Made by a program: the position numbers and the translations under genes. Shown here in pieces: positions 8,114 to 35,092 of a DNA stretch of 43,938 nt. Each line of letters opens with the position of its first letter. Within the stretch, counting starts at the first letter, position 1. Source of the stretch: an uncultured Gammaproteobacteria bacterium (GTDB taxonomy: Bacteria > Patescibacteriota > Patescibacteriia > CAIXNZ01); contig CAZHFK010000002.1 in the NCBI GenBank assembly GCA_964531215.1, positions 1-43,938 on the forward strand. Reading direction: 5' to 3'. The notes beneath the pieces were generated by a model, which saw only the letters and a list, made by a program, of their open reading frames with translations, was not told the origin of the DNA and did no database searches.

Positions 8114-8285
8114 TTTTTGAATAATTTAATCAATATGAAAATAAGAAGAGTAATAGCTTGTACTCTAATTACTATATATTTAACCATTAAAATAAAAAAA
8201 AATCAAATTGTATAAATTTGCTTTTAATTATTTTTTATGCTATTATTTTTATAATCTTAATTTTTTATTATTAATTTTTCTAAAA

Positions 8286-8921
8286 ATGTTTAATGGGAGC
8301 AGTAAGCAAAATAATGATCAATTTGAATGGAAAACCAAATCAACCTATGATTCTGTTTGGCGAACTTTAGGAGAATTTTTTGTTGAAATAATTAAAGTAG
8401 TAATTATTTCATTGGCAATTATAATACCAGTCAGATACTTTTTAATCCAGCCTTTTTATGTCAAAGGAGCTTCAATGGAACCGAGTTTTCATGATCATGA
8501 ATATTTAATTATTAATGAAATAGTTTATCGTTTTGAAGAACCGCAAAGAGGTGATATTGTTGTTTTTCGTTATCCCAAGGAGCCCAGTCAATATTTTATA
8601 AAAAGGATAATTGGTTTGCCCGGGGAAAAAATTAAAATTAAAGCCGGTGAAATTATAATTTATAATGATGAATTCCCAGAAGGAATTACTTTAAATGAGC
8701 AAGTTTATTTATTTGAAGATGAAGAAACGCCTCACTTGGGCAAGACAGAATTTATTTTGGAGCGAGATGAATTTTTTGTTTTAGGTGATAATCGCGACGC
8801 CAGCCTGGATTCCCGTAAGTTTGGGCCTGTTAATCAAAGATTGATTATTGGCAAGGCTTGGGTTCGTGGTTGGCCTTTGGAAAAAGTAACAATTTTTGAT
8901 ACACCGGAATATAATTTATAA
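8286..8921 (+). CDS. lepB: signal peptidase I
   Basis: Catalytic boxes VKGASMEPSF, RGDIVVF and GDNRDASLDSR. The ATG at 8286 (MFNGSS) is preferred because the ORF-track 5' extension (8208) is low-complexity and AT-rich. Confidence 0.9.
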   Translation: MFNGSSKQNNDQFEWKTKSTYDSVWRTLGEFFVEIIKVVIISLAIIIPVRYFLIQPFYVKGASMEPSFHDHEYLIINEIVYRFEEPQRGDIVVFRYPKEPSQYFIKRIIGLPGEKIKIKAGEIIIYNDEFPEGITLNEQVYLFEDEETPHLGKTEFILERDEFFVLGDNRDASLDSRKFGPVNQRLIIGKAWVRGWPLEKVTIFDTPEYNL

Positions 8922-10436: not shown

Positions 10437-10461
10437 TGTTTATAACTGGCTTTATTTTTAT

Positions 10462-10490: not shown

Positions 10491-10528
10491 TAAATCAAAT
10501 TTATTAAAAAGGAGATGGAAATAAAATA

Positions 10529-10747
10529 ATGGCAGAAGCAAAAAGAAAGAAAAACGAAACTTTTGAAAGTTTGCTTAGACGCTTTAATAAAAAATTAATG
10601 CAAAGTGGCAAACTGTTGCAAGCCAAAAAAATTAGGTTTTTGACTAAAGAACCTAATAAAAATTTAAGTAAAGATTTGGCTTTAAGGAGAAAAAGAATCA
10701 AAGAAAAAAAAGATTATTTGAAGAAAATTGGCAAATTAGAAGATTAA
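10529..10747 (+). CDS. rpsU: 30S ribosomal protein S21
   Basis: 72 aa and very basic. ESLLRRFNKKLMQSGKLLQAKKIRFLTKEP resembles the S21 core. AGGAG lies upstream. Confidence 0.85.
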   Translation: MAEAKRKKNETFESLLRRFNKKLMQSGKLLQAKKIRFLTKEPNKNLSKDLALRRKRIKEKKDYLKKIGKLED

Positions 10748-10765
10748 TTTTTTAATTTAAAATTA

Positions 10766-11206: not shown

Positions 11207-11227
11207 AATTCAATTAAATAAATTCCC

Positions 11228-13996
11228 ATGCTAAGAAAAAAACTCTTGGTGAATAAAAATGACCAAGAGAAAAAAAATAAAATTTTTGTCAGTAAGGCTG
11301 CCAAGGTATTATTGATAGTTGTTTTGGTTTTGGCAGTTTTTTTGTTTGTTTTTCCTGTTTTGGCGCAACCGGATGTCGGGTTTGAAGCGATTGAAGAGGA
11401 AATTGAATTAGGTACTCAAGATATTAGAGTCACGATTGCCAGAATAATTAGGGCTTTTTTGGGGTTTTTGGGCGTGATTGCTGTGGTAATTATTATTTAT
11501 GGCGGTTATTTATATATGACTTCGGCTGGTAATCCGGAACAAGTAACCAAAGCTAAAAAAGTTTTAATTAATGCTACAATCGGTTTAATAATAATTTTAA
11601 GTTCTTTTGCTATAGCTAGTTTTATCTTGAATTATTTAGTTGAAGCGACCGGTGGTGATGGCGGAGTGCCTGGGCGGCCGTCTTATGGGGCTGGTGGCGG
11701 AGCTTTGGGTAATGGTATTATTGAAAGTCATTATCCGGAAAGAAATGCCTTTGATATCCCCAGAAATACCAGTATAGTGGTAACTTTTAAAGAACCGATA
11801 GAAGTAACTAGTATTGTGATTGATGCCAATGAAAATGGTGAATATGGTGATTGTTTTGATGCCGATGGTAATAATCAGTTTGATATTGTTGATAATAATG
11901 ATGACGGGCAATTTAACATAGCTGACGGAGATTTCGCTGAATGCGATTTGATTAACCGTGATAGCATTCGAATTAGAAGAACCGATGAGACTCAGGGACC
12001 GTTTGTGGAATTGGTTAAGGCAACATTTACTGATGATCATAAAACATTTGTTTTTAAACCCGTGGAATTGTTAGGCAGTTCGGATCAGGCAATTGATTAC
12101 ACAGTCAGTTTAACTGAAAATATACTTAAAGAAGATGGCAGTCAGGCTTTTGGTAATTTTGGTAATTATTCTTGGAATTTTGAAGTGTCTAACAGAATTG
12201 ATAATACGCCTCCTCAAGTTGATTCGGTTATACCAAGTTATTCAAATAATCCTAATGATACTGTTCCCCGAAATCATATTGTCCAAATTAATTTTAATGA
12301 ACCAATTAATCCAATGACAATCAGGGGAATCGCCAGGGTTGAGGGGGGCGGTACAGTCGGTCAATTAGAAACCGATACTTTTAATAATATAATGGTTTCA
12401 ATCCCGGGCGATCAGTATGTTGCCGGCGAGTTTTTGTATAGTAACGGATATCAAACAGTTGAATTTGTGACCAATGATCTTTGTGGTAAAAATACTTGTG
12501 GCGGTGATGTTTTTTGTTTACCAGGAGAAGAATATATAAATGTTTTAATTAAAGCCGCCAGTTTTTCCGGGTTTGGCGGAGTGACTTTTCCTTATGACGG
12601 CATTGTAGATATGGCTGATAATTCTTTAGACGGTAATAAAGATAAACAGGCCAAGGGACCGGTTGATGATCCTTATAATATTAATTTTAGTAATGATCCG
12701 ACTTATGAAGCTGAGTTATACGGAGATAGTGCCGAATGGAGTTTTTATACCAGTAATGAAATAGACTTGGCGCCACCTGAAATAGAGAGTTATAGTCCGG
12801 AAAGTGGTGAAATAGGTGTTGATCCAACGACTGATTATGAAATTACTTTTAATAAGATTATTATGTCTTCTACAATTAAGTCAGGCGGAGAAGGTTATTG
12901 TTCTTGTTTAGCTGATGATCAGTGCGGTAATAATATTTGTGATGTTACTAATAATTATTGTATTGATAATGATAGTGAGCAATATGTTTGCTCAACCCCA
13001 TGTCCAGACGGCCAGCCTTGTAATATTGAAAAAGAATATTTTATTTTAAATCCGCCACCGCCAGATTTAATGCCGCCACAATATCCCGCAGGTGGTTGGG
13101 CATATTGGCTGCGAAGTTCAAATTATGGTGGTAAAACAACAGCTAAAATTAAGCATGAAGATTTGGGTGAAAATATAAATTTTGATATCAGGGTTGGTTC
13201 TGGTATAAAAGATATTACTCAAAATTGTTATCAGCCTTGTGCCGGTCCAGAATGTTCCAAAGTTGAAATTCAGCCGGGTGAATATGAAGTTCAGCCAGGT
13301 GAATGGGAGCCAAATGATGACAGTTTCCCGACTTGTGATTTGACTGATGTACAATATAGTGCGACTGGTAATTTTATTTTAAATTATGTTGATGCTAATG
13401 GTAAGCCTCAAACTATTGATTTTAGTGCTTATAGTTTGCCAAAATCAATAGAAGATTTTTATTTATATAGAGATGATGGCGCCGGTGGCGCAGGTCCCAG
13501 AACATTTTTAGACGGTTTTGGCGGTGTTTTTAATACTTTCATGAAACCCAATAGAACAATGTCATTTATTTATCATGACAGTTTAAATAATTTATATTAT
13601 TTGGTTAATGTTCATGGCGCTCCATTAGTGGGGGGCGGAACTTTTCAAGGTTCAATAACTAATGCGGCTGATGAATTTTATTTTGCGATAAGGGATGATA
13701 GCGGCAGGGATCATGATTGCAATAATGTGCCAATAACTTCTGGTGGTGATCGCTATGCTGATTGCGGTAATGCTTTATATAATCATCAAGGATGGATTGT
13801 GCCTTGGGCGGATGGCGAGGCTATTTATATTGGTGATGGTAGCCAAGATATTAATTTTGATATAAATGTAGAATCATTTGCGCCAACAAGAACAACAGAA
13901 GATCCAGAGTGGGTGTTTTTCATGACACAAAGATCCATTAATGTGGCTAATAGTTTTCCGGCTTCGGTTTCAATTATTTATTTTGCTAATCAATAA
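11228..13996 (+). CDS. large surface protein: pilin-like (VirB2/TrbC-like) N-terminal membrane module, Gly-rich linker, three SbsA-type Ig-like segments and an unknown C-terminal domain
   Basis: 922-aa uninterrupted ORF. Signal-peptide-like h-region ending VLA/QPD. Two hydrophobic helices flank YGGYLYMTSAGNPEQVTKAKK. Ig-like segments begin near IPRNTSIVVTFKEPI, VPRNHIVQINFNEPI and YEITFNKII. Confidence 0.85.
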   Translation: MLRKKLLVNKNDQEKKNKIFVSKAAKVLLIVVLVLAVFLFVFPVLAQPDVGFEAIEEEIELGTQDIRVTIARIIRAFLGFLGVIAVVIIIYGGYLYMTSAGNPEQVTKAKKVLINATIGLIIILSSFAIASFILNYLVEATGGDGGVPGRPSYGAGGGALGNGIIESHYPERNAFDIPRNTSIVVTFKEPIEVTSIVIDANENGEYGDCFDADGNNQFDIVDNNDDGQFNIADGDFAECDLINRDSIRIRRTDETQGPFVELVKATFTDDHKTFVFKPVELLGSSDQAIDYTVSLTENILKEDGSQAFGNFGNYSWNFEVSNRIDNTPPQVDSVIPSYSNNPNDTVPRNHIVQINFNEPINPMTIRGIARVEGGGTVGQLETDTFNNIMVSIPGDQYVAGEFLYSNGYQTVEFVTNDLCGKNTCGGDVFCLPGEEYINVLIKAASFSGFGGVTFPYDGIVDMADNSLDGNKDKQAKGPVDDPYNINFSNDPTYEAELYGDSAEWSFYTSNEIDLAPPEIESYSPESGEIGVDPTTDYEITFNKIIMSSTIKSGGEGYCSCLADDQCGNNICDVTNNYCIDNDSEQYVCSTPCPDGQPCNIEKEYFILNPPPPDLMPPQYPAGGWAYWLRSSNYGGKTTAKIKHEDLGENINFDIRVGSGIKDITQNCYQPCAGPECSKVEIQPGEYEVQPGEWEPNDDSFPTCDLTDVQYSATGNFILNYVDANGKPQTIDFSAYSLPKSIEDFYLYRDDGAGGAGPRTFLDGFGGVFNTFMKPNRTMSFIYHDSLNNLYYLVNVHGAPLVGGGTFQGSITNAADEFYFAIRDDSGRDHDCNNVPITSGGDRYADCGNALYNHQGWIVPWADGEAIYIGDGSQDINFDINVESFAPTRTTEDPEWVFFMTQRSINVANSFPASVSIIYFANQ
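11366..11650 (+). other. pilin-like two-helix module, copy 1 (paralogous to 14098-14385)
   Basis: It aligns without gaps to copy 2. By my hand count, 66 of 96 positions are identical, for example RVTIARIIRAFLGFLG, YGGYLYMT, KAKK and FAIASF. Confidence 0.8.
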
Positions 13997-13998
13997 TT

Positions 13999-16900
13999 AT
14001 GTTAAAGTCAGTTAAGAAAAAAATTAGCAGAAAAAAAGTTTTTTTAGGCTTAATAATATTTTTAAGTTTATTTTTAGTATTTAATCAAGTTAATGCGCAA
14101 CCTGATGTTGGTTTGCAACCGGTTGGTGAAGAAATACAGCTAGGTACAGCTGATCTAAGGGTAACAATTGCCAGAATAATCAGAGCGTTTTTAGGCTTTT
14201 TAGGTATAGTTGCCGTTAGTTTGGTAATTTACGGCGGTTATTTATATATGACGGCTCAGGGTGTCCCGGAAAAAATTGATAAAGCTAAAAAGACTTTGGT
14301 TGCAGCAGTAATTGGATTAGTGATTGTGTTATCAGCTTTTGCTATAGCCAGTTTTGTTTTAAATCAATTATTACAAGCAACCGGGCCAGGGGGCGGTGAT
14401 GGCGGTAATGGTGACGGGCCAGGGCCCGGTGGTGATATCTCCGGCGGGGTAGAAGAATTTTGCGCCAACCCTTCAACTGATGTAGCACCTTGGTTATGTA
14501 TTAAAGAACAGGATCAGACAGCTCAAAGTGATAGCTTGATAACTTTATATGGTGGAAATGTCGGTGATACTCCCGGTCGGATTTATTTTACAGACAGGGA
14601 TCAGGTTAATCAGTATGATGCCGAAATCGTTACATGTAAAGATGATGATGTTAAATGGTTTAAAGCTATATCCAACAGTGATTTACAAAAAGTCAAAGTC
14701 AGGGTGCCCCAAGAATTGGATTTGGCTGAAAATGATTATTGGGTTGTGGCAGACACAGCCAATGGTTTAACTGTTAATAAAGTTTGGCAAGGTTATGTTG
14801 ATGATGATCGCTTGGATCGGTTTACTTATGAAGCCGGTGATAATAATGCGCCTAATATAATTTGTTTTACAACCGAAATAGCTGATAATGGCGGTTTTGC
14901 TGAAGGGCCGGAAATTGATTTTGCCAGTCAAGGCGATCGAGTCAGAATTAAAGGCGAAAGGTTTGGCACAGACGGCACAGTAGTTTATAACAGTGGCGAT
15001 ACCAATGATTCAGCCACAATTAATGACTGGCAGGAAACTTATGTCAGCACAGTTGTCCCGCCGACAGCTTCAGGTGATGTCCGGATAACCAGAGATGATA
15101 ATGAGTCCGATGAAGATTATTTGGGTATTTTATGCGATACGAATTCTGATTGCGGTACTAATTGTTGTCAGCAGCGCCAAGGTCGTAATGTTTGTGTGGC
15201 CGAAGAAAATTGTTTAAATGATGAAGGTGAGGCTTGTTTTGACGGCGTAGCTTGTACTGACGCTGAATTTGGCTGTCGTTCCGATTTATTTTGTGATCCG
15301 ACCGATTGTATTTGTAAACGTCGCGGAGAGGGAGCTCCTTGTGATGCAATGCCTGAAACAGCTAGTTGTCAAGCCGATGACACTTTATGTGGTGATGAAT
15401 TTTATTGTTCAATAACCGAAGCTTGTACTTGTCGGTATTTACCGCGAATTGACGGGTTTGATCCTGAGGCAGGTGGTCCTGGTAATTTTGTGTCGGTTTA
15501 TGGTCAGGGCTTTGGGACAGAAATAAATACTAATTCAAAAATAATATTTTTAGGCGCTGATACTGACGGTGATCAAAATCCCGAAGGCGACGACGATGAT
15601 TTAGAAGCTATTTTACCAATGAATTGCGGTGCTGAAAATGTTTGGCAAGATAATCAAATTATAATTGAAATACCGGATGGCGCGGTTTCAGGGCCTTTAA
15701 AATTAATAAATTCTGACGGGCTGGAAGAAACAACCATGGATTCAGATGGAATTGTGGCTGATTTTGAAGTTGACCCCGATATTAATTATCCCAGCTTATG
15801 TAGTGTTGATCCTGATCAAGGAGAATTTGGTGATTCAGTTAATTTAACCGGTAAAAATTTTGGTGATGGGGCTGATGGGCAAGTCTTGATTGGTGGGCTG
15901 GGATTTTCACAAGGTGATAATTGGGATTGGTCTTATGATCCGGGTGATGAATTGGATAAAATAACTGATGCCGTAGTACCCAATATTGAACCTGATGAAA
16001 ATTTACCGGTTCAAGTCAGAAGCGGTGATACTTATAGTAATTCATTTAATTTTACTGTTATAGAATCAGGTAAAGCGCCAAGAATCGATTACATTGATCC
16101 TGATCGGGCGCCGGTTGGTCAGTATGTTACTATTTATGGTTCTAATTTTGGTCAGGATGAAGGTTTGGTTAAATTTAGAAATGCCGGCGGTGATTTTGTT
16201 GAGGCTGATTTAAGTTTTCCTGAACAATGTTTAAATAATTTATGGCATGATACTTATATTATTGTTAAAGTGCCGAGTCTGGGGCAGGGTAATCCTTTAG
16301 CCAGTGAAGTTATTGTGGAAACCCAAAATAGCGGCAATACTAATACGGTTGATTTTGAAAGATGTGTTTTGAATGAAAATACTTGTCCTTTAAGGCCTGG
16401 TATTTGCTTGATAGAGCCCAATCAAGGACCGGTTGGTACTGAAATAAATTTTTATGGCGATAATTTTGGTGAATATAATACTAATAATTCTCAAGTGGTT
16501 TTTTGGGATAATCAAGCAATTACACCATCTTTAGCTAATTGGTCGAATCAAAATATTGGGCCGATTAATGTGCCGGATCAAGCTAGTACGGGGCCAGTTG
16601 AAGTCGTTTCTGGTTTGGGATTAACTAGCAACCAAATGCCGTTTACAGTAGCTGATTGTCGGGATAATCCTGATATTTGTGATACTGCCAATACCGGTAA
16701 TATTTGTTGTGAATTTGATGGTATTTGCAAAACAGAAATTGAATGTTATGGTGAAAAACCGCCAATGTGTTTTTATTCCTGGGCTTTTGCGACCGGCCAG
16801 GTGCCTCAAGAATTCAGACCGCCGCAAGTAGTGGAAGATATTGAATGTAATGAGAATACGCAATCACCCTCACCTTGGAAAGATTATGAATCAAATTGTG

Positions 16901-19900
16901 TAAATGCCAATATTTCGGCTCGGTTTAATCGTTTAATGAATGCAGCAACATTTACAACTGATAATATTATTGTCAGAGAATGTTGGGCTGAAGATTATTT
17001 TGATGAAGAATCGGGTTCTGAATGTGAAATACCCAGTTGGCATAATCAAGATAGAAATATTTATCCGATTAACGAAGAAAACGGATTTTATAGAGGATTT
17101 ATTTATGAAGCACCGGTTAATGCTTTGCAGCCGGGACGTTGGTATGAAGTTACTTTAAAAAGCAGCAATGGTGATTATATAAAATCACGTGAAGGACTTT
17201 GGCTGGATGGTGATTTTGATTCTGATCCGGGTGGTGATTATCGCTGGTATTTTAGGATTAAAGATGGTGCTAAAGAATGCAGCTTGGAAAAGATTGTGGT
17301 AACACCGAATGAAGCAATAATTGAAACAATAGCCGATAATCAGGAATATAGCGCTACAGCTTTGGCGGTCAATTGTAATATATTAAATGGCAATTTTTAT
17401 AATTGGGAATGGTATAAACTTTATACTGACGGGACCAAAGAGGTTGGTCCAGTTGCTGATCCGCAAGCTTGCGATCGCCGGTATTGTATTGCTGAAATCA
17501 GTGAAAATGATGAAAACAATGACGGTAATATTGATTGGCGCCAAATGGCATCCCCATTAAAACAAGGTTTTACTTTTGTTGGTGCAGCGGCAGAAAATAA
17601 AAGTGATGAAAACAATGAATTAACAATAGATTTGAATATCCCGGAAATTTATCGGATTTATCCTGATAACGGTTTAATTAATCCGGATGTTAATTCTTAT
17701 GTGACAATTTACGGTAATAATTTTGGCAATCTTCAACGTGATAGTAAAGTCTTTTTTGATAATGTTGAAGCAGAAATCGCTCCTGATTGTCCGGCAGCTT
17801 GGACTGATTCGCAAATTCAAGTAATTGTGCCTAATCCGACACCAATTGAATCAGCCAATGAACCCACTTATGATTTAACCGGCATAAATGAAAGCGATGA
17901 TATGGTAATTTTTTATGATATGGATGAAGATTCGGACGTTATTTTACAAGATAAAGCCGACAATAATGATGGTGAAATTTTTGGAGCTGATAAAGTGGCA
18001 AGCACTTTTGGCAATGCTTTAAGATTTAACGGCCAATCTGATTATGTGAAATTGCCTAATAATTATAATTTATCAACCGGTAGTGTGGAATTATGGTTTA
18101 AGCCTAATTTTACATCAGATCAAAGGCAAACTTTATTTAGTATTTCTGATGGTACGGCTGATAATATTTTAGCTTTGGAAATTGATCCGGCTGATCAGGA
18201 TACTGCTAAATTTGTTTTAACTTTAAATACCGCCAATGGTCAAGCTAATAATAGTACGGTTTTTAATGTTTTGGAAAACGACAGCTGGCATCATTTGGTT
18301 TTTACTTATGATGGCGATGAATATTATTTTTATATAAACGGCCGTAAATTTTATTATTTTAATAATAGCAATATAGTAGCTTCGAATCAGACAGATTTTT
18401 GGTTTAATGCCAATACTGAAGCTACCAATATTTTACTTGGCGCTAAAAATACGGGTCAGTTTATTGATTATTATGACGGTTTGATGGAAGGTTTTGCGAT
18501 TTATGATTCGGTTTTAAGCGAGGATCAGGTCAGGTCACGTTATGGTTTGCAAGCCGGTCAGATTTTACTATTAAATTTTGAAGGAATTGGTGATGAAATA
18601 ATTGATTCGTCATCCAATAATTTTACAAATTTAAATGTCCAAGATTCTGATTTTAGAATTGATGAAGGCCGTTATGGCAAAGGTTTTGACAATAGCGTAA
18701 TTGAAGTAATTGATAATCCTTCATTAAATTTCAAAGATCAGATTTCAATAGAAGGTTGGTTTAAAGTTCCTGATTTTAATCAGTCTTTTACCATCTTTGA
18801 ATCGAATCGAATAAGTTTAGGCAATTTAAATAATAATTGTGGCTCTGGCTTGAACTTTTGTTTTAAATTAGATTTGGTTAATGAAAATAATTTAGCTGCT
18901 GGTGGAGCTCGCTGGGCTAGTTTGGATTCTAATAAAATAAGAAACAATGCCTGGAATTATTTTGCCGGAGTTTATGACGGCCAGACCATTAAACTGTATT
19001 TAAATGATGAAGTACCGGCCCAATGGCAATTTGACGGCAGAATTTATCAGCATGCGGATTTTGGTCGCGCAACTATTGGCAGTACCACAGGTAATGCGCA
19101 ATTTGATAATTTGGCAATTTATAGCCGAGCCTTAACAGAATCAGAAATTAATGATCGAGTCGGAGCTAAAAATGGGTCTAATGTTATAGTCCAAACCAAA
19201 TTTGGCTCTGATGATAGTTTGAGCGGTACTAATCAACTTTTTTATCATAGTGATATTGTTTATCCTTTTTTATGCCAGTTAAGACCGAATATAGGGTTAG
19301 AAGGGACTTCAATTGCAATTGGCGGTGATAATTTTGGTGATTCCAATAAAACAATTTATCAAGGTTTGGAATATGATCTGGGCAGTCTGGTTTATTTTGA
19401 TATGTTTAATTTGTCAGATGAAAACATTGACAACTGGACAAATAGTTTGGTTGATGCGATTAATCCGTTTAGTGATATTGGTACGCAAGAAATACCAGTT
19501 TCAATTTCTATAGATCCTTTTGCTGAACCGTTTATTGATGAAGATGATTCTGGTATTTATAATAGCGGTGAACAATATGCTGATATTTTAGAACCGTTTG
19601 GTGCATATAATCAAGGATTTTATGAAGTTGAAAAATTTGACCCCGAAGATATTAGTCAAACCGGTGTTATTGAAACAGAAACCGAATTAGTCAGCAATAC
19701 TCTGCCATTTTATTTTTCACCGGTTATAACGAAAATTACACCCGATAACGGACCCGAAGGTCAATGGGTGACAATTCATGGTTATAATTTTGGTCATAAT
19801 CCAGGCGAAGTTTACTTTTTTAACGATTTAGTGTCTGAATTTCCGCCAGAACCTTGTGAAAACTTTTGGACTAATACGCAAATTATTGTTGTGGTGCCTG

Positions 19901-22900
19901 AAGGAGCGCAACCCGGCGATGTTTATTTGATTACTGAACAAGGCTTGGAAAGTAATCGCGTAGCGTTTGAAGTTAATGATAATCCAGTGGGAGCCGGTAT
20001 TTGTCAGATAGAACCCAATATGGGGATTGCCGGCAGTAATATTATTGTTAAAGGTGATCGTTTTGATGAAGAAGGTGATGGTCAAGGTGAAGATCAATTA
20101 TTATTTAATGATAATAAATCAGCCAGTGTTTCTAATTGGCAAAATAGAACATTAAACGCAACTGTGCCAACAGGTGCGATTGATGGTAATGTAGTTATAA
20201 CCAAAAAACGAGAGGTTGACAGACAATGTGCCGGTTTTAGTATTGGTTCTTGGTGTCCAAGTGATCAGTATGACATTATTTATGAAGATATCCCTAGTAA
20301 TCCCGTTTATTTTAATGTTTTCTTGGGTTGTGAGCAGGCTGGAACCGGAGAAATTTGCACCGATCAAGCTGAAGAGCCTGGTTTTCCGATTAGACCTTAT
20401 TACAGTCAAGGCGATGTTCGTAATTTAAATGTTGATGTTGGTGTTTTAGCAACTGACGGCACATATTTATATGCCAGAAATTGGGCCGGTGAAAATTATA
20501 GTTATGGCGGTAATATTAGCGGAGTTGACGGTTCAAATATAATTTATAAAATCGGTACTGGTTATAATGGTACTGAATTGGGTAAAATTTATAAGGAATA
20601 TGTTTGGCGAGACCGAGAGGGAGTTAATCCTTTAGTAGCGATTTCCATGACTTATCATTCTGATAATAATTTTTATATCGGTCATAATATAATTCAAGAT
20701 TCTCAATATTTTATACCTAGAATTATTTTTGATGATGCAAATGATGAATTTTATTTGGAAAATGTTGAAATAACTGATTATTTGTTTAATTCTGGGAATG
20801 CTGATGCGGAGACCAATCATAAAGAAGCTTTAATTAGTTCTAATGGTCGTTTTATTTTTAATGTGGCTTTATATGGTGATGCAGCCAATCCTGACGGATA
20901 TCGAATTAAAATATTTGATCCGCAAAATAATTGGCGCAAAGTTAAAGAATTTGACGTCTCTAATAGTGAACAGATTAAAGCAATGCCTTTATCTAATGGC
21001 TTAGTCGTGGCTGGTGATATTATTTATATAATGAGCAGGTTTAATGATATAGTGGCAATTAATTGGCAAAATGAAGACTGGGTAGAATCTTGGGAAACTC
21101 ATAATAGCTCAACTTTTGAAATTAACGGGCAATATGATTGGCTTAATAATGTTTTTTGGATTGGTGAATTGGCTTATGAACTTGATCCTGCTAATCCAAG
21201 TAATCATATTCATCGTTATCCGGCCTGTCCCTTGGAAGGCGAAGAATTCTGCCGTGCGGATACGGATTGTGAAAAATGCGGGCCCGGTACCAGTTCTTGT
21301 GTTAATGGTCGTTGTACTCCTTATATAATGTCTTTTATACCTGATCAGGGGCCGGTTGGCAGCTGGGTGGATTTATACGGTTGTTATTTTGGCTGTGATC
21401 AAGGCAACATCCTTTTTACTGATAATAAGCCGGCTTTATTGATTAATGATCCTGAATGCGCTGATTCTTGGCAATGTGATACCAGTCCGTTTGATTGTCC
21501 CGGGATTGGGCCTGGTTGCGACCGCGTTCAAGTTGAGGTGCCTGATCAAACTACACCATTTGATGACACTGACGACGCAGAGACCGGTCCGGTGACTTTA
21601 ATAACAGCTTTAGGTTTAAGAGCAGAAACAGATTTTGATTTTGTAGTAACTGATGAAGAATTGGGTCATCAAATGTGCAGTTTAATTCCTGATTATGGTA
21701 ATCGCGGTATTACGGTCAGAATTCATGGAGCTAATTTTGATGATAATGGCGGAGATATTAATAATGGCGATTATGTTTATTTTGGTTTGGGTAATGGTTT
21801 AACAGCGCGTGAACCATGGTCTGACAGTAATGACGACGGTAGTTTTACTGCCGGAGAAGCGTTTATTGATTTTGATAATAATGGCCAATACGATATAAGT
21901 TTAAATGATGATGAGTATTCTTTTAATATTGATAATTATGTTTCTAATGCGACAGGTTGCCCGGATGATGGCTGGAGTGATAAGGATATTTGTTTTACTG
22001 TTCCTAATAATGCGGCTGGGCAGGGTAATAATAATTTGCAGGCAATTAATAATGTTAAAGTTTTTAAAAATAATGAAGATAATAATAATAGAGAAGCTTT
22101 TGCTTTGAATTTTGGTCATTGCGGCAATCAAATTATTGAATTAAATAAAGGCGAACAATGTGATGGGATTAGTTTGCCAAATATTAGTTGTTGCCAATTG
22201 GGTTATGTTGCCAATAAAATTTGCCAAAATAACAGTGAGCCTTGCATAGATGATGCGGATTGCCCCGGGAGTGTTTGTGTTGATGCTTGTCAAATAAATT
22301 GTACCAATCAATGCGGTTTAGAGGTTTGTGACGGGATGACTGGTTTATGTAGTTCATTAGATCAAGTATTGTGCGGTAATGGTGATATAGATACTGTTTG
22401 CGAAGAGGTTGAAGGCCAGGAATGTTTGGAGCCGCCTGTTTGTAAACAAGATAATCAAGGTAATGATATCATAATTTATGAAGAAGAATGTGATGACGGT
22501 AATACGGTTTCCGGTGACGGTTGTGATAATATGTGCCGTTTGGAAGCGCCAGAGGTAATTGAAGTTGAGGGGCCACAAGTTGAAGCAACCGTGCCGGTTC
22601 ATGGTGAAGAAAGTTTTTGCCGTAATGGTATTATTGATATTTATTTTAATAGTTTAATTGATTCGGCAACAATTACTAGCGATAATATTAAATTACAGGC
22701 TTGTACCAGCCCAATAACTAAAGAGAAAAAAGGTTTATTAGCTAATTTTTGGTATAATTTAAAAGACGTGTTCAAAAAATTAATCGGTATTGATCGACAG
22801 GCTTTAGCTCAATTGAATTGTGGTTCGTTTGTTGATATTACGGATTTAGATTTTAAAATTAAAAATAGAAAAGGCAGAACTATTTTATCTATTTTGCCAA

Positions 22901-24390
22901 ATGAACTTTTGGAAAGAAATACTATTTATCAGGTTCGTTTAACACCGAATATAGAGAATTTAACCGGCGGGAGTTTGGATAATTTGGCTGGTGAACTTGA
23001 CGGTACGCCGATTGATGACGGTTCTGGCGATTATATATTTAATTTTAAAACTTTAGGCGAAGCAGGTGATGAATTAAGCGGTATTTGTAATGTTGAATGG
23101 ATCAATATTAATGTTTATCGCCATGAATATGCCGGTACTGATCCACCGTTAACAGAACGTGAATCAGAATTAAGAACCAATGATTTGTTTATTTGCGCGG
23201 GGCGTGATGATTGTAATTTGGAAGTTGATTATGATCAGGATTCTACTACTTCGGGCAATCAACATATTTATGAAGCAATTGCCAAATATAGCGGAGGATA
23301 TAGTTTAAAAGCCGAGTATCAATGGTCTAAAACAGCTTCATCTGATCCGCAAAATGTGCTTACTTTATATAATAATCAAGAAGATTTGGAAGCTGATCCT
23401 GATAGAGTCAAAAATAATAGCGGGATTGTTTATACTACGTCCGAACCAATAAAAGAAGCCAAAGCTCAATTAGTTGTAGAAGCACAGGCGGCAGGCAGCT
23501 GGACAACACCGGCACAGCAAAATTTTTTGGTTTATGTTTTATTATGTGAAAATCCATGGCCGTCAATTAATGAAAAGTTTCCTATTTCCAGCTTAATTAA
23601 TGCATATAATTTTCAGCTTTATTACTGTCGTGATGCCGGTCGGCCAGGTGATCAGTCTGATGATTTACCGGCAGCCAGATGGTTATTCCCTGAAGTTGCA
23701 GATTTAACTATTTTAGAAAATACTGATTTTGAATTTGGCAGTTTGCGTCATTGGGTGGCTGACGACGGCAATGCTTTTATGAGGCAACCGGTTTTTGGCG
23801 ACATTACTTTGGCCAGAGACGGTATTTCCAGTAGGATTCAGGGCAATTGGTGGATTGGGACCAAAGAAAATTATCATGGTTATGATTGGGAAGATATTAA
23901 TTCAGCCGGTCAAGGTCTTAGCCCGACAGGTATTTTACATTCTCAAGCCTTTTTAATTGAGGGCAATGAGATCCGATTTTTAATTGGTGGTAGTCAGACT
24001 GATAGTGTGACTTTGGACAGTTTTACTGATATTGAATTGCCACCGAGCGATTTGACAGCAGTGGTTTTGGCAGTAAAAGATGATCCGCAAGAAATAGCCA
24101 GTGAAGAAATCGTCAGAAAAATAACAGGCCCAGGCATTACAACCATGCAGCAAGCCAGTTTTGATACCAGTCAGTTTATGACAGGCAGAACTTGCCAGGC
24201 CGACGCCGACTGCAATGATTATGGTACTTGCGAGTGTGATGGTGAATGTGGTCCGGAAAATAGTGGTCAATGTTCCCCTGTAGCTGGTATAATATATATA
24301 TATGATAATGATGCGTCCGGATATATTAATTTTGATGATTTAAATCAATACAAACAAGGTGTAGAAATTCCTATTAGATTTACTGATTAA
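13999..24390 (+). CDS. giant surface protein (3463 aa): pilin-like N-terminal module, about 12 IPT/TIG repeats, two LamG-type domains, Cys-rich repeats and Ig-like and jelly-roll-like modules
   Basis: Uninterrupted 10.4-kb ORF starting 2 nt after the previous stop. The IPT/TIG signature P-x-I-x-x-I-x-P-x-x-G-x-x-G-x-x-V-x-I-x-G-x-x-F-G recurs near 14539, 14941, 15442, 15791, 16078, 16396, 17641, 19264, 19720, 19993, 21318 and 21667. LamG-like segments lie at about 17896-18545 and 18550-19160. A CGNG...EECDDGN-type Cys-rich repeat region lies at about 22110-22550. Confidence 0.9.
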   Translation: MLKSVKKKISRKKVFLGLIIFLSLFLVFNQVNAQPDVGLQPVGEEIQLGTADLRVTIARIIRAFLGFLGIVAVSLVIYGGYLYMTAQGVPEKIDKAKKTLVAAVIGLVIVLSAFAIASFVLNQLLQATGPGGGDGGNGDGPGPGGDISGGVEEFCANPSTDVAPWLCIKEQDQTAQSDSLITLYGGNVGDTPGRIYFTDRDQVNQYDAEIVTCKDDDVKWFKAISNSDLQKVKVRVPQELDLAENDYWVVADTANGLTVNKVWQGYVDDDRLDRFTYEAGDNNAPNIICFTTEIADNGGFAEGPEIDFASQGDRVRIKGERFGTDGTVVYNSGDTNDSATINDWQETYVSTVVPPTASGDVRITRDDNESDEDYLGILCDTNSDCGTNCCQQRQGRNVCVAEENCLNDEGEACFDGVACTDAEFGCRSDLFCDPTDCICKRRGEGAPCDAMPETASCQADDTLCGDEFYCSITEACTCRYLPRIDGFDPEAGGPGNFVSVYGQGFGTEINTNSKIIFLGADTDGDQNPEGDDDDLEAILPMNCGAENVWQDNQIIIEIPDGAVSGPLKLINSDGLEETTMDSDGIVADFEVDPDINYPSLCSVDPDQGEFGDSVNLTGKNFGDGADGQVLIGGLGFSQGDNWDWSYDPGDELDKITDAVVPNIEPDENLPVQVRSGDTYSNSFNFTVIESGKAPRIDYIDPDRAPVGQYVTIYGSNFGQDEGLVKFRNAGGDFVEADLSFPEQCLNNLWHDTYIIVKVPSLGQGNPLASEVIVETQNSGNTNTVDFERCVLNENTCPLRPGICLIEPNQGPVGTEINFYGDNFGEYNTNNSQVVFWDNQAITPSLANWSNQNIGPINVPDQASTGPVEVVSGLGLTSNQMPFTVADCRDNPDICDTANTGNICCEFDGICKTEIECYGEKPPMCFYSWAFATGQVPQEFRPPQVVEDIECNENTQSPSPWKDYESNCVNANISARFNRLMNAATFTTDNIIVRECWAEDYFDEESGSECEIPSWHNQDRNIYPINEENGFYRGFIYEAPVNALQPGRWYEVTLKSSNGDYIKSREGLWLDGDFDSDPGGDYRWYFRIKDGAKECSLEKIVVTPNEAIIETIADNQEYSATALAVNCNILNGNFYNWEWYKLYTDGTKEVGPVADPQACDRRYCIAEISENDENNDGNIDWRQMASPLKQGFTFVGAAAENKSDENNELTIDLNIPEIYRIYPDNGLINPDVNSYVTIYGNNFGNLQRDSKVFFDNVEAEIAPDCPAAWTDSQIQVIVPNPTPIESANEPTYDLTGINESDDMVIFYDMDEDSDVILQDKADNNDGEIFGADKVASTFGNALRFNGQSDYVKLPNNYNLSTGSVELWFKPNFTSDQRQTLFSISDGTADNILALEIDPADQDTAKFVLTLNTANGQANNSTVFNVLENDSWHHLVFTYDGDEYYFYINGRKFYYFNNSNIVASNQTDFWFNANTEATNILLGAKNTGQFIDYYDGLMEGFAIYDSVLSEDQVRSRYGLQAGQILLLNFEGIGDEIIDSSSNNFTNLNVQDSDFRIDEGRYGKGFDNSVIEVIDNPSLNFKDQISIEGWFKVPDFNQSFTIFESNRISLGNLNNNCGSGLNFCFKLDLVNENNLAAGGARWASLDSNKIRNNAWNYFAGVYDGQTIKLYLNDEVPAQWQFDGRIYQHADFGRATIGSTTGNAQFDNLAIYSRALTESEINDRVGAKNGSNVIVQTKFGSDDSLSGTNQLFYHSDIVYPFLCQLRPNIGLEGTSIAIGGDNFGDSNKTIYQGLEYDLGSLVYFDMFNLSDENIDNWTNSLVDAINPFSDIGTQEIPVSISIDPFAEPFIDEDDSGIYNSGEQYADILEPFGAYNQGFYEVEKFDPEDISQTGVIETETELVSNTLPFYFSPVITKITPDNGPEGQWVTIHGYNFGHNPGEVYFFNDLVSEFPPEPCENFWTNTQIIVVVPEGAQPGDVYLITEQGLESNRVAFEVNDNPVGAGICQIEPNMGIAGSNIIVKGDRFDEEGDGQGEDQLLFNDNKSASVSNWQNRTLNATVPTGAIDGNVVITKKREVDRQCAGFSIGSWCPSDQYDIIYEDIPSNPVYFNVFLGCEQAGTGEICTDQAEEPGFPIRPYYSQGDVRNLNVDVGVLATDGTYLYARNWAGENYSYGGNISGVDGSNIIYKIGTGYNGTELGKIYKEYVWRDREGVNPLVAISMTYHSDNNFYIGHNIIQDSQYFIPRIIFDDANDEFYLENVEITDYLFNSGNADAETNHKEALISSNGRFIFNVALYGDAANPDGYRIKIFDPQNNWRKVKEFDVSNSEQIKAMPLSNGLVVAGDIIYIMSRFNDIVAINWQNEDWVESWETHNSSTFEINGQYDWLNNVFWIGELAYELDPANPSNHIHRYPACPLEGEEFCRADTDCEKCGPGTSSCVNGRCTPYIMSFIPDQGPVGSWVDLYGCYFGCDQGNILFTDNKPALLINDPECADSWQCDTSPFDCPGIGPGCDRVQVEVPDQTTPFDDTDDAETGPVTLITALGLRAETDFDFVVTDEELGHQMCSLIPDYGNRGITVRIHGANFDDNGGDINNGDYVYFGLGNGLTAREPWSDSNDDGSFTAGEAFIDFDNNGQYDISLNDDEYSFNIDNYVSNATGCPDDGWSDKDICFTVPNNAAGQGNNNLQAINNVKVFKNNEDNNNREAFALNFGHCGNQIIELNKGEQCDGISLPNISCCQLGYVANKICQNNSEPCIDDADCPGSVCVDACQINCTNQCGLEVCDGMTGLCSSLDQVLCGNGDIDTVCEEVEGQECLEPPVCKQDNQGNDIIIYEEECDDGNTVSGDGCDNMCRLEAPEVIEVEGPQVEATVPVHGEESFCRNGIIDIYFNSLIDSATITSDNIKLQACTSPITKEKKGLLANFWYNLKDVFKKLIGIDRQALAQLNCGSFVDITDLDFKIKNRKGRTILSILPNELLERNTIYQVRLTPNIENLTGGSLDNLAGELDGTPIDDGSGDYIFNFKTLGEAGDELSGICNVEWININVYRHEYAGTDPPLTERESELRTNDLFICAGRDDCNLEVDYDQDSTTSGNQHIYEAIAKYSGGYSLKAEYQWSKTASSDPQNVLTLYNNQEDLEADPDRVKNNSGIVYTTSEPIKEAKAQLVVEAQAAGSWTTPAQQNFLVYVLLCENPWPSINEKFPISSLINAYNFQLYYCRDAGRPGDQSDDLPAARWLFPEVADLTILENTDFEFGSLRHWVADDGNAFMRQPVFGDITLARDGISSRIQGNWWIGTKENYHGYDWEDINSAGQGLSPTGILHSQAFLIEGNEIRFLIGGSQTDSVTLDSFTDIELPPSDLTAVVLAVKDDPQEIASEEIVRKITGPGITTMQQASFDTSQFMTGRTCQADADCNDYGTCECDGECGPENSGQCSPVAGIIYIYDNDASGYINFDDLNQYKQGVEIPIRFTD
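14098..14385 (+). other. pilin-like two-helix module, copy 2
   Basis: See 11366-11650. It is preceded by a signal-peptide-like segment ending VNA/QPD and followed by the Gly-rich linker GPGGGDGGNGDGPGPGG. Confidence 0.8.
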
Positions 24391-34290: not shown

Positions 34291-35040
34291 ATGTTTGATA
34301 AACCAAATCAACAAGCAGGGGGACAACCAGAAGAAACTCCTACTCAACCGCAATCAGCCGGTTCAAGCCCGGCAGCTAATCAGCCGGAAACATCAACAGC
34401 GCCTAGCCAGGCAACCGATTCAGGCCAACAGCCCGGCCAGCCAGCCAATGAGCCCGAAGATATTTTTGCCGGTATTAATACTGGCGGGGTAACAGGTCAA
34501 GGTCAGCCAGACCAGCCAACTCCGCCGCCACCACAGGAGCCCAAGGGCGGTAAAGGCAAAAAAATTATTTTAATAATTTTAATTGTGGTAATTGCCATAT
34601 TAGTGATTGCCGGTGGTGTTTTAGCTTATTTAAGTTTTATGGGGCAGGATCAAGATGTTGATACTAATGTTAATGCCAATACGAACGTTAATGCCAACGC
34701 TAATGTAAATACTAACGCTAATACTAACGCTAATACTAACGCTAATGTAAATACTAACGCTAATACTAATGCCAATGTTAATTTAAATGCGCCGGCTGGG
34801 CAGGATTCTGATAATGACGGTTTGACTGATGCTGAAGAAGAAGATTTGGGTACTAATGAATTAAATCCTGATACTGATAACGACGGTTTGTTGGATTATG
34901 AAGAAGTTTATATCTATGAGACTAATCCATTGGATCCTGATACTGACGGCGACGGCTATAGTGACGGTGATGAAGTTAGTGCAGGTTATGATCCTAATGG
35001 CTCGGGTAAATTATTAGAAGTACCGGCTGAGGAAGAATAA
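34291..35040 (+). CDS. single-pass membrane protein: Pro/Gln-rich N-terminus, TM helix, Asn-rich (N-x-N) spacer and thrombospondin-type-3-like Ca-binding repeats
   Basis: 249 aa. TM helix IILIILIVVIAILVIAGGVLAYL. Spacer NVNANTNVNANANVNTNANTNANTNANV. Ca-binding-like repeats DSDNDGLTDAEE, DTDNDGLLDYEE and DTDGDGYSDGDE. Confidence 0.75.
   Translation: MFDKPNQQAGGQPEETPTQPQSAGSSPAANQPETSTAPSQATDSGQQPGQPANEPEDIFAGINTGGVTGQGQPDQPTPPPPQEPKGGKGKKIILIILIVVIAILVIAGGVLAYLSFMGQDQDVDTNVNANTNVNANANVNTNANTNANTNANVNTNANTNANVNLNAPAGQDSDNDGLTDAEEEDLGTNELNPDTDNDGLLDYEEVYIYETNPLDPDTDGDGYSDGDEVSAGYDPNGSGKLLEVPAEEE
34663..34788 (+). repeat. Asn-codon microsatellite-like repeat with 42-nt periodicity
   Basis: gctaatgtaaatactaacgctaatacta occurs at 34699 and again at 34741. 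The whole tract is built from aat/aac-nnn hexamers. Confidence 0.8.
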
Positions 35041-35092
35041 ATAATAAGTTAATAGCAAAATAGTTTTTAAGCTTTATAAATTTTGGAATTGT

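What the first reader, a model, noticed from the sequence alone, without database searches (positions are those of the whole stretch)
11228..14385. VirB2/TrbC-pilin-like two-helix module duplicated and fused to giant adhesin-like ectodomains
Seen in sequence: the 922-aa and 3463-aa ORFs are separated by only 2 nt. Both start with a basic N-region and a signal-peptide-like helix ending VLA/QPDVG or VNA/QPDVG. A 96-aa module follows that aligns without gaps (66/96 identical by hand count). It consists of an amphipathic stretch RVTIARIIRAFLGFLG running into hydrophobic helix 1, a polar loop YGGYLYMT(S/A)xGxPExxxKAKK, and hydrophobic helix 2 ending FAIASF(I/V)LN. A Gly-rich linker comes next, after which the two proteins diverge completely. 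Established knowledge: a long signal peptide followed by two hydrophobic helices joined by a short polar loop is the topology of conjugative T4SS pilins (VirB2/TrbC). From memory, small stand-alone proteins of this kind are abundant in CPR genomes, but I cannot verify this here. Inference: the module is fused here to ectodomains of about 0.8 and 3.3 kaa. Either a polymerising pilin-like anchor displays huge adhesins, or the module has been co-opted as a membrane anchor. The window contains no VirB4/VirD4 ATPase, prepilin peptidase or sortase, so assembly would depend on unlinked or unknown factors. I consider this the strongest candidate for an undescribed surface or attachment system, plausibly for host-cell contact in an episymbiont.
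Basis: partly seen in the sequence, partly recalled or inferred. Interest (0 to 1): 0.85.

Follow-up and report, generated by a model that had tools for sequence, protein, structure and literature searches.

The report
Pilin-anchored giant surface protein pair
Two adjacent genes of an ultrasmall (Patescibacteria) bacterium each begin with the small membrane hairpin of a conjugation-type (VirB2-like) pilin and continue into very large Ig-like and lectin-like surface domains, and dozens of related genomes keep this pair in the same place, which suggests an undescribed way of mounting giant adhesin or coat proteins on the cell.

Summary
ORF A (11228-13996, 922 aa) and ORF B (13999-24390, 3463 aa) lie 2 nt apart. 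They share a signal peptide plus a 96-aa two-helix module (66/96 identical) and nothing else.

The module belongs to Pfam PF18895 (T4SS_pilin), scoring above the gathering threshold, and lies just below threshold for TrbC/VirB2. Charge, cysteine content and hydrophobicity put both ectodomains outside the cell.

The pair is not a one-off:
- 41 tandem pairs turned up in genome and metagenome contigs. Wherever upstream flank is present and recognisable, it reads SPase I-HisRS-YqeY.
- No T4SS gene was recognised nearby.
- The ectodomains are ancient orthologues (A-type always first, B-type second).
- The two pilin modules of one genome resemble each other more than their orthologues elsewhere, so they evolve in concert.
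- The A ectodomain models confidently as a string of Ig-like domains, closest to the S-layer protein SbsC and to adhesin stalks.

Best reading: these are modular VirB2-family pilins whose hairpins anchor, and probably co-assemble, giant surface proteins. Whether they polymerise into a fibre is untested. VirB2-like pilins and pilin arrays in Patescibacteria are published; I found no description of this fusion or of the conserved pair. Verdict: a new variant of a known kind.

The parts
11228..13996 (+). ORF A, 922 aa: signal peptide, PF18895 pilin hairpin, Gly-rich linker, then an Ig-like (Big_5) ectodomain
11228..11365 (+). A signal peptide (aa 1-46), ending V-L-A. The Ala at -1 is invariant in 14 aligned modules
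11366..11425 (+). A mature N-terminal acidic segment (aa 47-66), predicted extracellular. This is the part most strongly matched between A and B of the same genome
11426..11638 (+). A pilin core (aa 67-137): amphipathic lead-in plus helix 1, the loop MTSAGNPEQVTKAKK (predicted cytoplasmic or lumen-facing), and helix 2
11639..11722 (+). A Gly-rich linker (aa 138-165)
11723..13993 (+). A ectodomain: a string of Ig-like beta-sandwiches (3 Big_5 hits) plus a C-terminal beta-domain. The AF2 model (built on aa 151-922) has pLDDT 87.7. Closest solved folds are the S-layer protein SbsC and adhesin stalks
13999..24390 (+). ORF B, 3463 aa: signal peptide, PF18895 pilin hairpin, Gly-rich linker, then a giant acidic ectodomain with 102 Cys (5 TIG, 2 Laminin_G_3, Big_5, Cys-rich acidic repeat)
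13999..14097 (+). B signal peptide (aa 1-33), ending V-N-A
14098..14385 (+). B mature pilin module (aa 34-129), 66/96 identical to aa 47-142 of A
14371..14454 (+). B Gly/Pro/Asp-rich linker (aa 125-152)
8208..8921 (+). Signal peptidase I (TIGR02227, 153 bits; not TraF). It is a conserved neighbour three genes upstream of the pair and the inferred enzyme that removes the pilin-type leader. Whether the linkage is functional or only conserved gene order is unknown
34291..36160 (+). Two single-pass membrane proteins (249 and 355 aa) with Asn-rich low-complexity regions and TSP3 Ca-binding repeats. They are conserved downstream of the pair in many loci. Whether they belong to the same surface system is uncertain

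Best explanation
A and B are modular members of the patescibacterial VirB2-like pilin family (PF18895).

Proposed mechanism, with what is shown and what is inferred:
1. Each protein is exported by Sec. Its long leader is cut by signal peptidase I after the invariant Ala (inferred).
2. The mature N-terminus stays outside, helix 1 crosses inwards, the Lys-rich loop faces the cytoplasm and helix 2 crosses back out (inferred from charge and hydrophobicity).
3. The Gly-rich linker and the whole ectodomain are therefore extracellular.
4. A carries a roughly 770-aa rod of Ig-like domains. B carries a roughly 3300-aa acidic, Cys-rich array of TIG, lectin and Ig-like domains (shown by profile matches; the AF2 model covers A only).
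5. The two hairpins of one genome are kept alike while their ectodomains are unrelated and anciently orthologous (shown). I infer that the hairpins pack against each other, or against one common partner, in a pilin-type helical bundle in or on the membrane.
6. This bundle roots a two-component surface coat or adhesin, plausibly for contact with a host cell.

My probability estimates:
- module homologous to T4SS pilins: about 0.9
- ectodomains outside the cell: about 0.85
- A and B co-assemble through the module: about 0.55
- extraction by a T4SS into a true extended fibre: about 0.25
For: - Profile membership. All 14 modules from 7 genomes match PF18895. Ten of 14 match PF04956 TrbC/VirB2 (best E = 2.4e-6). 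NF045849 is above its cutoff for both isolated modules (and for full-length A, but 35.2 vs 40 for full-length B).
- Fold. AF2 gives two long helices in a hairpin, with pLDDT 80-93 over the helices.
- Topology. There are three hydrophobic segments. The mature N-terminus is acidic and the loop is KAKK. There is no C-terminal anchor or LPXTG. The ectodomains are acidic and Cys-rich: B has 102 Cys and D+E 556 against K+R 204.
- Cleavage. The Ala at -1 of the predicted cleavage site is invariant.
- Recurrence. 41 tandem pairs were found. Wherever upstream flank is present and recognisable, it reads SPaseI-HisRS-YqeY-[A][B]; F, G and YbeY-DgkA-FtsA(-FtsZ) follow where the downstream flank reaches them.
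- Orthology. 37/37 first genes have an A-type ectodomain. 29/37 second genes have a B-type ectodomain. There is never a swap.
- Concerted evolution in 38 non-redundant pairs. Own-pair A-B identity is 0.58 against 0.32 for the exposed N-segment, and 0.67 against 0.52 for the core. For the signal peptide it is only 0.30 against 0.24. The genome's own B ranks first of 38 in 23 (exposed segment) and 28 (core) cases. No shuffle in 10,000 reached the observed value.
- Selection rather than recent conversion. Several pairs keep 63-77% amino-acid identity while synonymous codon identity is at background level. The window's two modules are only about 68% identical in DNA.
- Distinct subfamily. For 105 of 111 fused modules the nearest neighbour outside the locus is another fused module. 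They carry an extra conserved GLGTxDIR lead-in.
- A ectodomain. AF2 gives pLDDT 87.7. Foldseek top hits are S-layer SbsC (E = 2.6e-7), the Ig-like domains of PrgB, and large adhesins.
- A T4SS exists in the lineage. The four Buchananbacteria assemblies whose rows I could read in Table S1 of PMC12102498 are all marked as having VirB4.
Against: - No T4SS gene was recognised within 10 kb of the pair in any locus (neighbours were labelled only by homology to the window's own proteins). The neighbours are housekeeping and cell-division genes.
- No solved pilin matches by sequence or discriminates by fold. tblastn against 72,556 plasmids finds nothing.
- PF04956 is below its gathering score.
- No T4SS pilus has yet been seen in any patescibacterium, so the 'pilin' function of PF18895 is itself inferred.
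- Gene conversion between adjacent paralogous segments could produce concerted evolution without any physical interaction. A few pairs (L005, L039) show raised synonymous identity.
- Topology rests on simple hydrophobicity and charge rules, not on a dedicated predictor.
- A 370-kDa ectodomain on every subunit would be hard to fit into a pilus lattice.
Confidence: 0.55

Rival explanations
1. A and B are true pilus subunits. They act as minor or tip pilins that an unlinked T4SS (VirB4/VirB6) extracts from the membrane and incorporates, sparsely or at the tip, into a fibre built mainly of small stand-alone PF18895 pilins. They would display adhesin modules in the way modular type IV pilins do.
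For: - The module is homologous to VirB2/TrbC.
- VirB4 is reported in Buchananbacteria and other ABY1 assemblies.
- Small pilin arrays are abundant in related genomes.
- L029 has a 122-aa pilin between A and B.
- In solved conjugative pili both pilin termini lie on the fibre exterior and the loop lines the lumen (my recollection of published F- and T-pilus structures), so a C-terminal fusion could point outwards.
- The pilin array is essential in S. epibionticum.
- PrgB-like Ig domains appear among the Foldseek hits.
Against: - The pair was never seen next to a recognised T4SS gene, whereas small pilins lie near virB4 in 1135 of 1948 assemblies.
- Fused modules form their own subfamily, distinct from the small pilins.
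- No patescibacterial T4SS pilus has been observed.
- The 1:1 conserved pair and its core-genome position look more like a constitutive envelope component.
Confidence: 0.25
2. The hairpin is only a co-opted membrane anchor with no pilin-type contacts. The within-genome similarity of the two modules comes from repeated gene conversion between adjacent paralogous segments.
For: - There is no linkage to a T4SS.
- The module sits on unrelated ectodomains, including a C39-like peptidase domain in L015.
- Synonymous identity is raised in some pairs (L005 0.78, L039 0.73).
Against: - A single uncleaved signal-anchor would do the job, yet a cleavable leader plus a two-helix module with invariant Gly, Met-Thr and Ala-Lys positions is conserved.
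- Homogenisation stops at the signal peptide boundary.
- Several pairs keep 63-77% amino-acid identity with synonymous sites at background level.
- The window's modules show no identical DNA run longer than about 20 nt.
Confidence: 0.15
3. The pilin module is a carrier or leader that is cleaved off in the Gly-rich linker. The ectodomains are then released to form a detached S-layer or secreted adhesins.
For: - The A ectodomain resembles the S-layer protein SbsC.
- Gly-rich linkers are exposed and flexible.
- TrbC and VirB2 pilins are processed at the C-terminus in RP4 and Ti systems (my recollection of the literature).
Against: - No SLH or other wall-binding domain was found that could hold a released layer on the cell.
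- The only S26 peptidase nearby is the housekeeping signal peptidase I, not TraF.
- The linker sequence is not conserved.
Confidence: 0.05
4. The fusion is an assembly or gene-calling artefact, such as a missed stop codon or a chimeric contig.
For: None.
Against: The same architecture and gene order occur on more than 40 independent contigs from many samples. 433 protein clusters match the A ectodomain, and almost all of the best 120 carry PF13205 plus PF18895.
Confidence: 0.01

Closest known systems
Patescibacterial VirB2-like pilins (Pfam PF18895), for example the essential six-gene pilin array in the T4SS locus of Ca. Southlakia epibionticum ML1 (PMC10633639, PMC12102498, PMC12857230)
   Same: Same protein family by profile. 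Same layout of leader, two hydrophobic helices and a short polar loop. Same phylum. Occurs in tandem copies.
   Different: The known ones are stand-alone proteins of 100-200 aa, often next to virB4, with only 25% mean identity within an array. Here the module carries ectodomains of 0.8 and 3.3 kaa and forms a fixed two-gene pair in a housekeeping neighbourhood. The two modules are 60-70% identical and evolve in concert.
Classical conjugative pilins VirB2/TrbC (PF04956)
   Same: Long Sec leader cleaved by signal peptidase I, an N-out/C-out hairpin and a basic loop. The profile matches at E = 4e-5 over the whole model.
   Different: The score is below Pfam's gathering threshold. There is no head-to-tail cyclisation context, no TraF and no neighbouring T4SS. 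The host is a monoderm. A giant C-terminal extension is present.
Modular type IV pilins PilB and PilC of Streptococcus sanguinis (PMC8179133, PMC9934059)
   Same: Same design principle: a pilin module with an adhesive module grafted onto its C-terminus (vWA or lectin).
   Different: Unrelated pilin superfamily, with a class III signal peptide, a prepilin peptidase and a single N-terminal helix. The grafted modules are far smaller. Incorporation into the filament has been shown experimentally.
PrgB adhesin of the Enterococcus pCF10 T4SS, and the VirB5 tip adhesin of Gram-negative T4SS
   Same: Adhesins that act with a T4SS. The Ig-like domains of PrgB are among the structural matches to the A ectodomain.
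   Different: PrgB is LPXTG-anchored and has no pilin module. VirB5 is a small helical protein. According to PMC12102498, no PrgB homologue was found in Patescibacteria.
S-layer proteins SbsA and SbsC of Geobacillus (Big_5 / SbsA_Ig domains)
   Same: Best structural match (4uic, 4uj6; E about 3e-7). Pfam Big_5 is the SbsA Ig-like domain. Both are elongated strings of Ig-like domains on a monoderm surface.
   Different: SbsC binds secondary cell-wall polymer through its N-terminal domain and has no membrane hairpin. Lattice formation by A or B is untested.

Membership tests
Pfam PF18895 T4SS_pilin (patescibacterial / monoderm VirB2-like pilins) | Profile match above the curated gathering score | tested here: met
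   A scores 43.8 bits and B 36.3 bits against a cutoff of 26.6. All 14 modules from 7 genomes match.
Pfam PF18895 T4SS_pilin (patescibacterial / monoderm VirB2-like pilins) | Cleavable leader followed by two hydrophobic helices joined by a short polar loop | tested here: met
   Hydropathy and charge analysis. AF2 hairpin with helices at mature residues 20-52 and 57-94. Invariant Ala at -1.
Pfam PF18895 T4SS_pilin (patescibacterial / monoderm VirB2-like pilins) | Small stand-alone protein (about 100-200 aa) ending soon after helix 2 | tested here: not met
   A is 922 aa and B is 3463 aa. Small pilins have a median tail of 9 aa after the module.
Pfam PF18895 T4SS_pilin (patescibacterial / monoderm VirB2-like pilins) | Encoded within or next to a T4SS gene cluster (virB4 and others) | tested here: not met
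   No T4SS family among the window ORFs. None was recognised in the flanks (up to 10 kb, where the contig allows) of the pair loci (neighbours labelled by homology to the window's proteins only).
Pfam PF04956 TrbC/VirB2 conjugative pilins | Profile match above the gathering score | tested here: not met
   24.3 and 23.8 bits against a cutoff of 27.9. The E-values of 4e-5 and 5e-5 are significant, and 10 of 14 modules match at E <= 0.01. This indicates homology but not curated membership.
Pfam PF04956 TrbC/VirB2 conjugative pilins | Fold superposes on solved pilins from conjugative pili | tested here: inconclusive
   Foldseek of the hairpin against PDB gave no hit at E < 0.001, only generic helical hairpins. 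An HMM search of PDB sequences found nothing.
Pfam PF04956 TrbC/VirB2 conjugative pilins | Polymerises with phospholipid into an extracellular pilus by way of VirB4/VirB6 | not testable with these tools
   Needs multimer modelling, cryo-ET or biochemistry.
Modular type IV pilins (type 4 filament superfamily) | Class III signal peptide cut by a prepilin peptidase, with a single hydrophobic N-terminal helix | tested here: not met
   The leader is of type I with A-x-A-like sites VLA|Q and VNA|Q, and there are two helices. No prepilin peptidase is in the window. This is an analogy only.
Sortase-anchored (LPXTG) Gram-positive adhesins such as PrgB | C-terminal LPXTG motif, hydrophobic segment and basic tail | tested here: not met
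   The C-termini of A and B have no hydrophobic segment or sorting motif. No sortase is in the window.
S-layer proteins (SbsA/SbsC type) | Elongated chain of Ig-like domains | tested here: met
   Three Big_5 hits. AF2 pLDDT 87.7 and top Foldseek hits to SbsC 4uic and 4uj6.
S-layer proteins (SbsA/SbsC type) | Cell-wall-binding domain (SLH or SCWP-binding) and self-assembly into a 2-D lattice | tested here: not met
   No SLH or similar Pfam hit in A or B. Lattice formation cannot be tested here.

The most novel reading that the evidence does not exclude
The A/B hairpins, alone or with small pilins, polymerise independently of any conjugation-type function into a membrane-rooted pilin lattice. 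This could be a short bottle-brush fibre or a two-dimensional raft, and its every subunit, or every second subunit, would carry a giant Ig-like or lectin arm. That would be a previously unseen class of surface organelle, built from T4SS-pilin chemistry and serving as the host-attachment coat of ABY1-class Patescibacteria. The matched evolution of the two modules would reflect lattice contacts.
Probability: 0.2. Interest if true: 0.85.

Novelty: new variant of a known kind. Interest (0 to 1): 0.62.

Why it matters
Patescibacteria make up a large share of bacterial diversity, and most are thought to live attached to other cells. How they attach is known only for a few Saccharibacteria, through type IV pili. 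Their VirB2-like pilins are essential in the one species tested, and no one knows what those pilins build.

A widespread, core-genome pair in which this pilin module carries giant Ig-like and lectin ectodomains matters for three reasons:
1. It provides concrete candidate attachment or coat proteins for the uncultured ABY1 lineages.
2. It shows that the T4SS pilin fold can act as a modular carrier, as type IV pilins do.
3. It supplies a natural handle for asking whether monoderm T4SS pilins polymerise at all: two co-evolving hairpins with huge epitopes that are easy to label.

It also warns that counts of 'VirB2 homologues' in genome surveys mix small pilins with giant fusion proteins.

Tried and rejected
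- A sequence search of PDB with the module profile returned only chance hits to Pumilio at E about 1.
- Foldseek of the AF2 hairpin against PDB returned only generic helical hairpins, including ATP synthase subunit c, so it cannot support or refute the pilin fold.
- tblastn of the mature module against 72,556 plasmids found no match.
- An attempt to fetch plasmid R388 (BR000038), to build a reference alignment of true VirB2 proteins for hhalign, failed because the accession is not held.
- An exact look-up of ORF A in the assembly collection found it is not on record. The closest relatives are 91% (Ca. Buchananbacteria Bin_492) and 85% identical.
- The first homologue search with the module alone returned only 'short' proteins. 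These proved to be mostly contig-truncated fragments of fusion proteins, so 'the fusion is rare' was rejected.
- I considered the idea that the neighbouring S26 peptidase is a TraF-like pilin-maturation enzyme and rejected it. It is the housekeeping signal peptidase I.
- I rejected recent gene conversion as the cause of the similarity in this window. DNA identity is about 68% and the longest identical run is about 20 nt.
- Promoter and terminator scans around the pair were uninformative.
- Ten neighbours of small-pilin arrays were tested for T4SS genes, and none was one.
Full report
**1. The observation**

The window has ORFs at 11228..13996 (922 aa, 'A') and 13999..24390 (3463 aa, 'B') on the + strand. 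They are separated by TAA-tt-ATG. Both start with a basic stretch and a hydrophobic helix ending VLA|QPDVG or VNA|QPDVG. BLASTP of the whole proteins finds only this N-terminal match (76/127 identities, E = 6e-42) and nothing significant in the remaining 800 and 3300 residues. Gly-rich linkers follow the module.

**2. What the module is**

- Both modules match Pfam PF18895 'T4SS_pilin' above the gathering score (43.8 and 36.3 bits against 26.6).
- Both match PF04956 'TrbC/VirB2 pilin' over the whole model, leader included, at E = 4-5e-5. That is just under its gathering score (24.3 against 27.9).
- The isolated modules are above the cutoff of NCBIfam NF045849 'Mbov_0395 family pilin-like conjugal transfer protein' (49.8 and 41.9 against 40; full-length B scores 35.2).
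- In an alignment of 14 such modules from seven genomes, all 14 match PF18895 and 10 match PF04956.
- AlphaFold2 on the mature module gives a disordered acidic N-segment of about 19 residues, followed by two long helices in a hairpin with pLDDT 80-93.
- Neither a profile search of PDB sequences nor Foldseek singles out solved pilins, because a helical hairpin is too generic. The homology therefore rests on the profile matches.

**3. Topology**

Hydropathy shows three hydrophobic segments: the leader, helix 1 and helix 2. There is no C-terminal anchor or LPXTG motif. The mature N-segment is acidic and the inter-helix loop is Lys-rich (KAKK). The ectodomains are strongly acidic and Cys-rich; B has 102 Cys and D+E 556 against K+R 204. 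The residue at -1 of the predicted cleavage site is an invariant Ala. By the positive-inside rule this gives N-out/C-out, the topology I recall for VirB2, with the whole C-terminal region outside the cell. A dedicated topology predictor was not available.

**4. The ectodomains**

- A has three Big_5 (SbsA-type Ig-like) hits. B has five TIG hits, two Laminin_G_3 (ConA-like lectin) hits, one Big_5 hit and a Cys-rich acidic repeat.
- An AF2 model of the A ectodomain, built on 65 homologues, is confident (pLDDT 87.7, pTM 0.71). It is an all-beta string of Ig-like sandwiches.
- Its best PDB matches are the S-layer protein SbsC (4uic, 4uj6; E about 3e-7, probability 1.0). Next come the Ig-like domains of PrgB (the pCF10 T4SS adhesin), large bacterial adhesins and titin.

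**5. It is not a one-off**

- A scan of GTDB representative genomes found the closest relative in Ca. Buchananbacteria Bin_492 (95% identity in the module). It also found the same two-gene arrangement in Falkowbacteria, Magasanikbacteria and unnamed Patescibacteria.
- A metagenome scan added 79 loci. An HMM of the module run over all ORFs of the 96 sequences separates two kinds of locus. One kind is a tandem pair of fusion proteins: 41 pairs, with A of 525-1163 aa and B of 1800 to more than 3489 aa. The other kind is an array of 2-11 small stand-alone pilins.
- Wherever the contig reaches far enough upstream and the neighbours are recognisable, the pair sits in one conserved neighbourhood: Pth(-) Der(-) LytR(-) | SPase I, HisRS, YqeY, [A], [B], variable giant secreted proteins, two TSP3-repeat membrane proteins, YbeY, DgkA, FtsA, FtsZ. 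A few short or divergent loci (L033, L044, L047, L054) show no recognisable neighbour.
- No T4SS gene was recognised in the window or in those flanks, where neighbours were labelled by homology to the window's own proteins.
- The A ectodomain alone retrieves 433 protein clusters. Almost all of the best 120 carry PF13205 plus PF18895. Sources name them 'hypothetical protein' or 'Ig-like domain-containing protein'.
- The 'short' hits of the first search are largely contig-truncated fragments of such fusions.
- Family-wide, the module profile hits 95,503 representatives at E <= 1e-3. Among the best single-copy hits, 8 of 15 are N-terminal fusions of 618-2362 aa, with TIG, Big_5 and fn3 domains.

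**6. An ancient pair with modules that evolve in concert**

- In 37/37 pairs the first gene has an A-type ectodomain and never a B-type one. In 29/37 the second has a B-type ectodomain and never an A-type one. The pair therefore predates the divergence of these genomes.
- Yet the two pilin modules of one genome are more alike than orthologous modules of different genomes. In 38 non-redundant pairs, own-pair identity is 0.58 against 0.32 in the exposed N-segment and 0.67 against 0.52 in the helical core. In the signal peptide it is only 0.30 against 0.24.
- The genome's own B ranks first among 38 in 23 cases (exposed segment) and 28 cases (core). No permutation in 10,000 reached the observed mean. 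In 17-20 genomes the own B is closer than any A from another genome (first seen).
- Recent gene conversion is not the general cause. The window's modules are about 68% identical in DNA, with no identical run beyond about 20 nt. Several pairs keep 63-77% amino-acid identity with synonymous codon identity at the between-genome background, although a few (L005, L039) do look recently converted.
- Fused modules form a distinct subfamily. For 105 of 111 the nearest neighbour outside the locus is another fused module. They have a conserved GLGTxDIR lead-in that small pilins lack.

**7. Interpretation**

- Shown: a PF18895 pilin module, a Gly-rich linker, large Ig-like and lectin regions predicted to be extracellular, a conserved core-genome pair, and matched modules.
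- Inferred: Sec export, then cleavage by signal peptidase I. The gene three positions upstream is the housekeeping enzyme, not TraF. The hairpin inserts N-out/C-out.
- The matched evolution of the mature modules, but not of the leaders, is best explained by packing of the A and B hairpins against each other or against one shared partner. I therefore read the pair as modular VirB2-family pilins that root a two-component surface coat or adhesin.
- Whether an unlinked T4SS extracts them into a fibre is open. VirB4 is reported in the Buchananbacteria assemblies whose rows I could read, and T4SS components are reported in ABY1.
- Against fibre formation: there is no linkage to a T4SS, whereas small pilins lie near virB4 in 1135 of 1948 assemblies. 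The ectodomains are also very bulky.
- In favour of it: the homology itself, and, from my recollection of published pilus structures, the fact that pilin termini lie on the pilus exterior.

**8. Comparison with what is known**

- VirB2-like pilins, and tandem arrays of them, are published for Patescibacteria and are essential in Ca. S. epibionticum.
- None of the papers I could search mentions fusion to large ectodomains or this conserved pair. The library does not cover all journals, so an existing description cannot be excluded. The domain combination is visible in precomputed Pfam annotations.
- The nearest functional analogy is the modular type IV pilins PilB and PilC of S. sanguinis, which belong to an unrelated pilin superfamily.
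- Verdict: a new variant of a known kind. It is of real interest for CPR surface biology and for the question of what monoderm T4SS pilins build.

Noticed in passing
L007, L008, L011, L012, L043, L050, L062, L064, L065, L069, L076, L078, L087, L090, L093 (for example L064:7289-8692 followed by the array at 8697-14121): The arrays of small stand-alone PF18895 pilins closest to this module lie immediately downstream of an extracellular solute-binding protein (SBP_bac_1) in 15 of 25 array loci. The order is often 'unknown 460 aa, NTP_transferase, SBP, array'. None of the ten neighbours tested is a T4SS gene. This raises the question of whether some 'pilin' arrays work with an uptake system rather than with a T4SS.
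   Followed up: partly
P0035 (552 aa), P0044 (1775 aa) and most of the top 150 hits: 'Polypilins': single ORFs with one N-terminal signal peptide followed by 2-17 concatenated PF18895 hairpins. They dominate the top of the family-wide search. I do not know whether they are processed into monomers or act as polytopic proteins.
   Followed up: partly
L015:9761-10963 (Saccharibacteria RGIG6027): A 400-aa protein combines the PF18895 pilin module with a Peptidase_C39_2 domain. The module therefore also carries enzyme-like cargo, not only Ig-like arrays.
   Followed up: no
L029:11872-12240: In one locus a 122-aa stand-alone pilin lies between the A-type (576 aa) and B-type (1978 aa) fusion genes.
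   Followed up: no
window 24408-29693, 29728-33573 and 33603-34253: Three more secreted Cys-rich proteins follow B (1761 aa with CBM_4_9; 1281 aa with Lcl_C; 216 aa). Each has only an N-terminal signal or anchor helix and no pilin module. This segment varies between genomes, whereas A, B and the genes after it are conserved.
   Followed up: partly
window 34291-35040 and 35093-36160: Two single-pass membrane proteins with a disordered cytoplasmic N-terminus, Asn-rich (NTNANVN) low-complexity spacers and bacterial TSP3 Ca-binding repeats. They are conserved between the giant-protein block and YbeY-DgkA-FtsA-FtsZ in many loci.
   Followed up: partly
window 8208-11206: Signal peptidase I, HisRS and YqeY are conserved directly upstream of the pair wherever the flank is available and recognisable. 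HisRS has a Lys-rich, low-complexity N-terminal extension of about 50 aa.
   Followed up: partly
L016:4576-8102: A smaller pilin-fusion pair (674 and 448 aa) lies next to RecG and a RadA-like ATPase. The published survey reports these genes near T4SS loci in class ABY1.
   Followed up: no
window 8001-43938: GC skew is strongly positive (0.15-0.32) across the whole block of + strand genes and near zero in the - strand block before position 8000.
   Followed up: no
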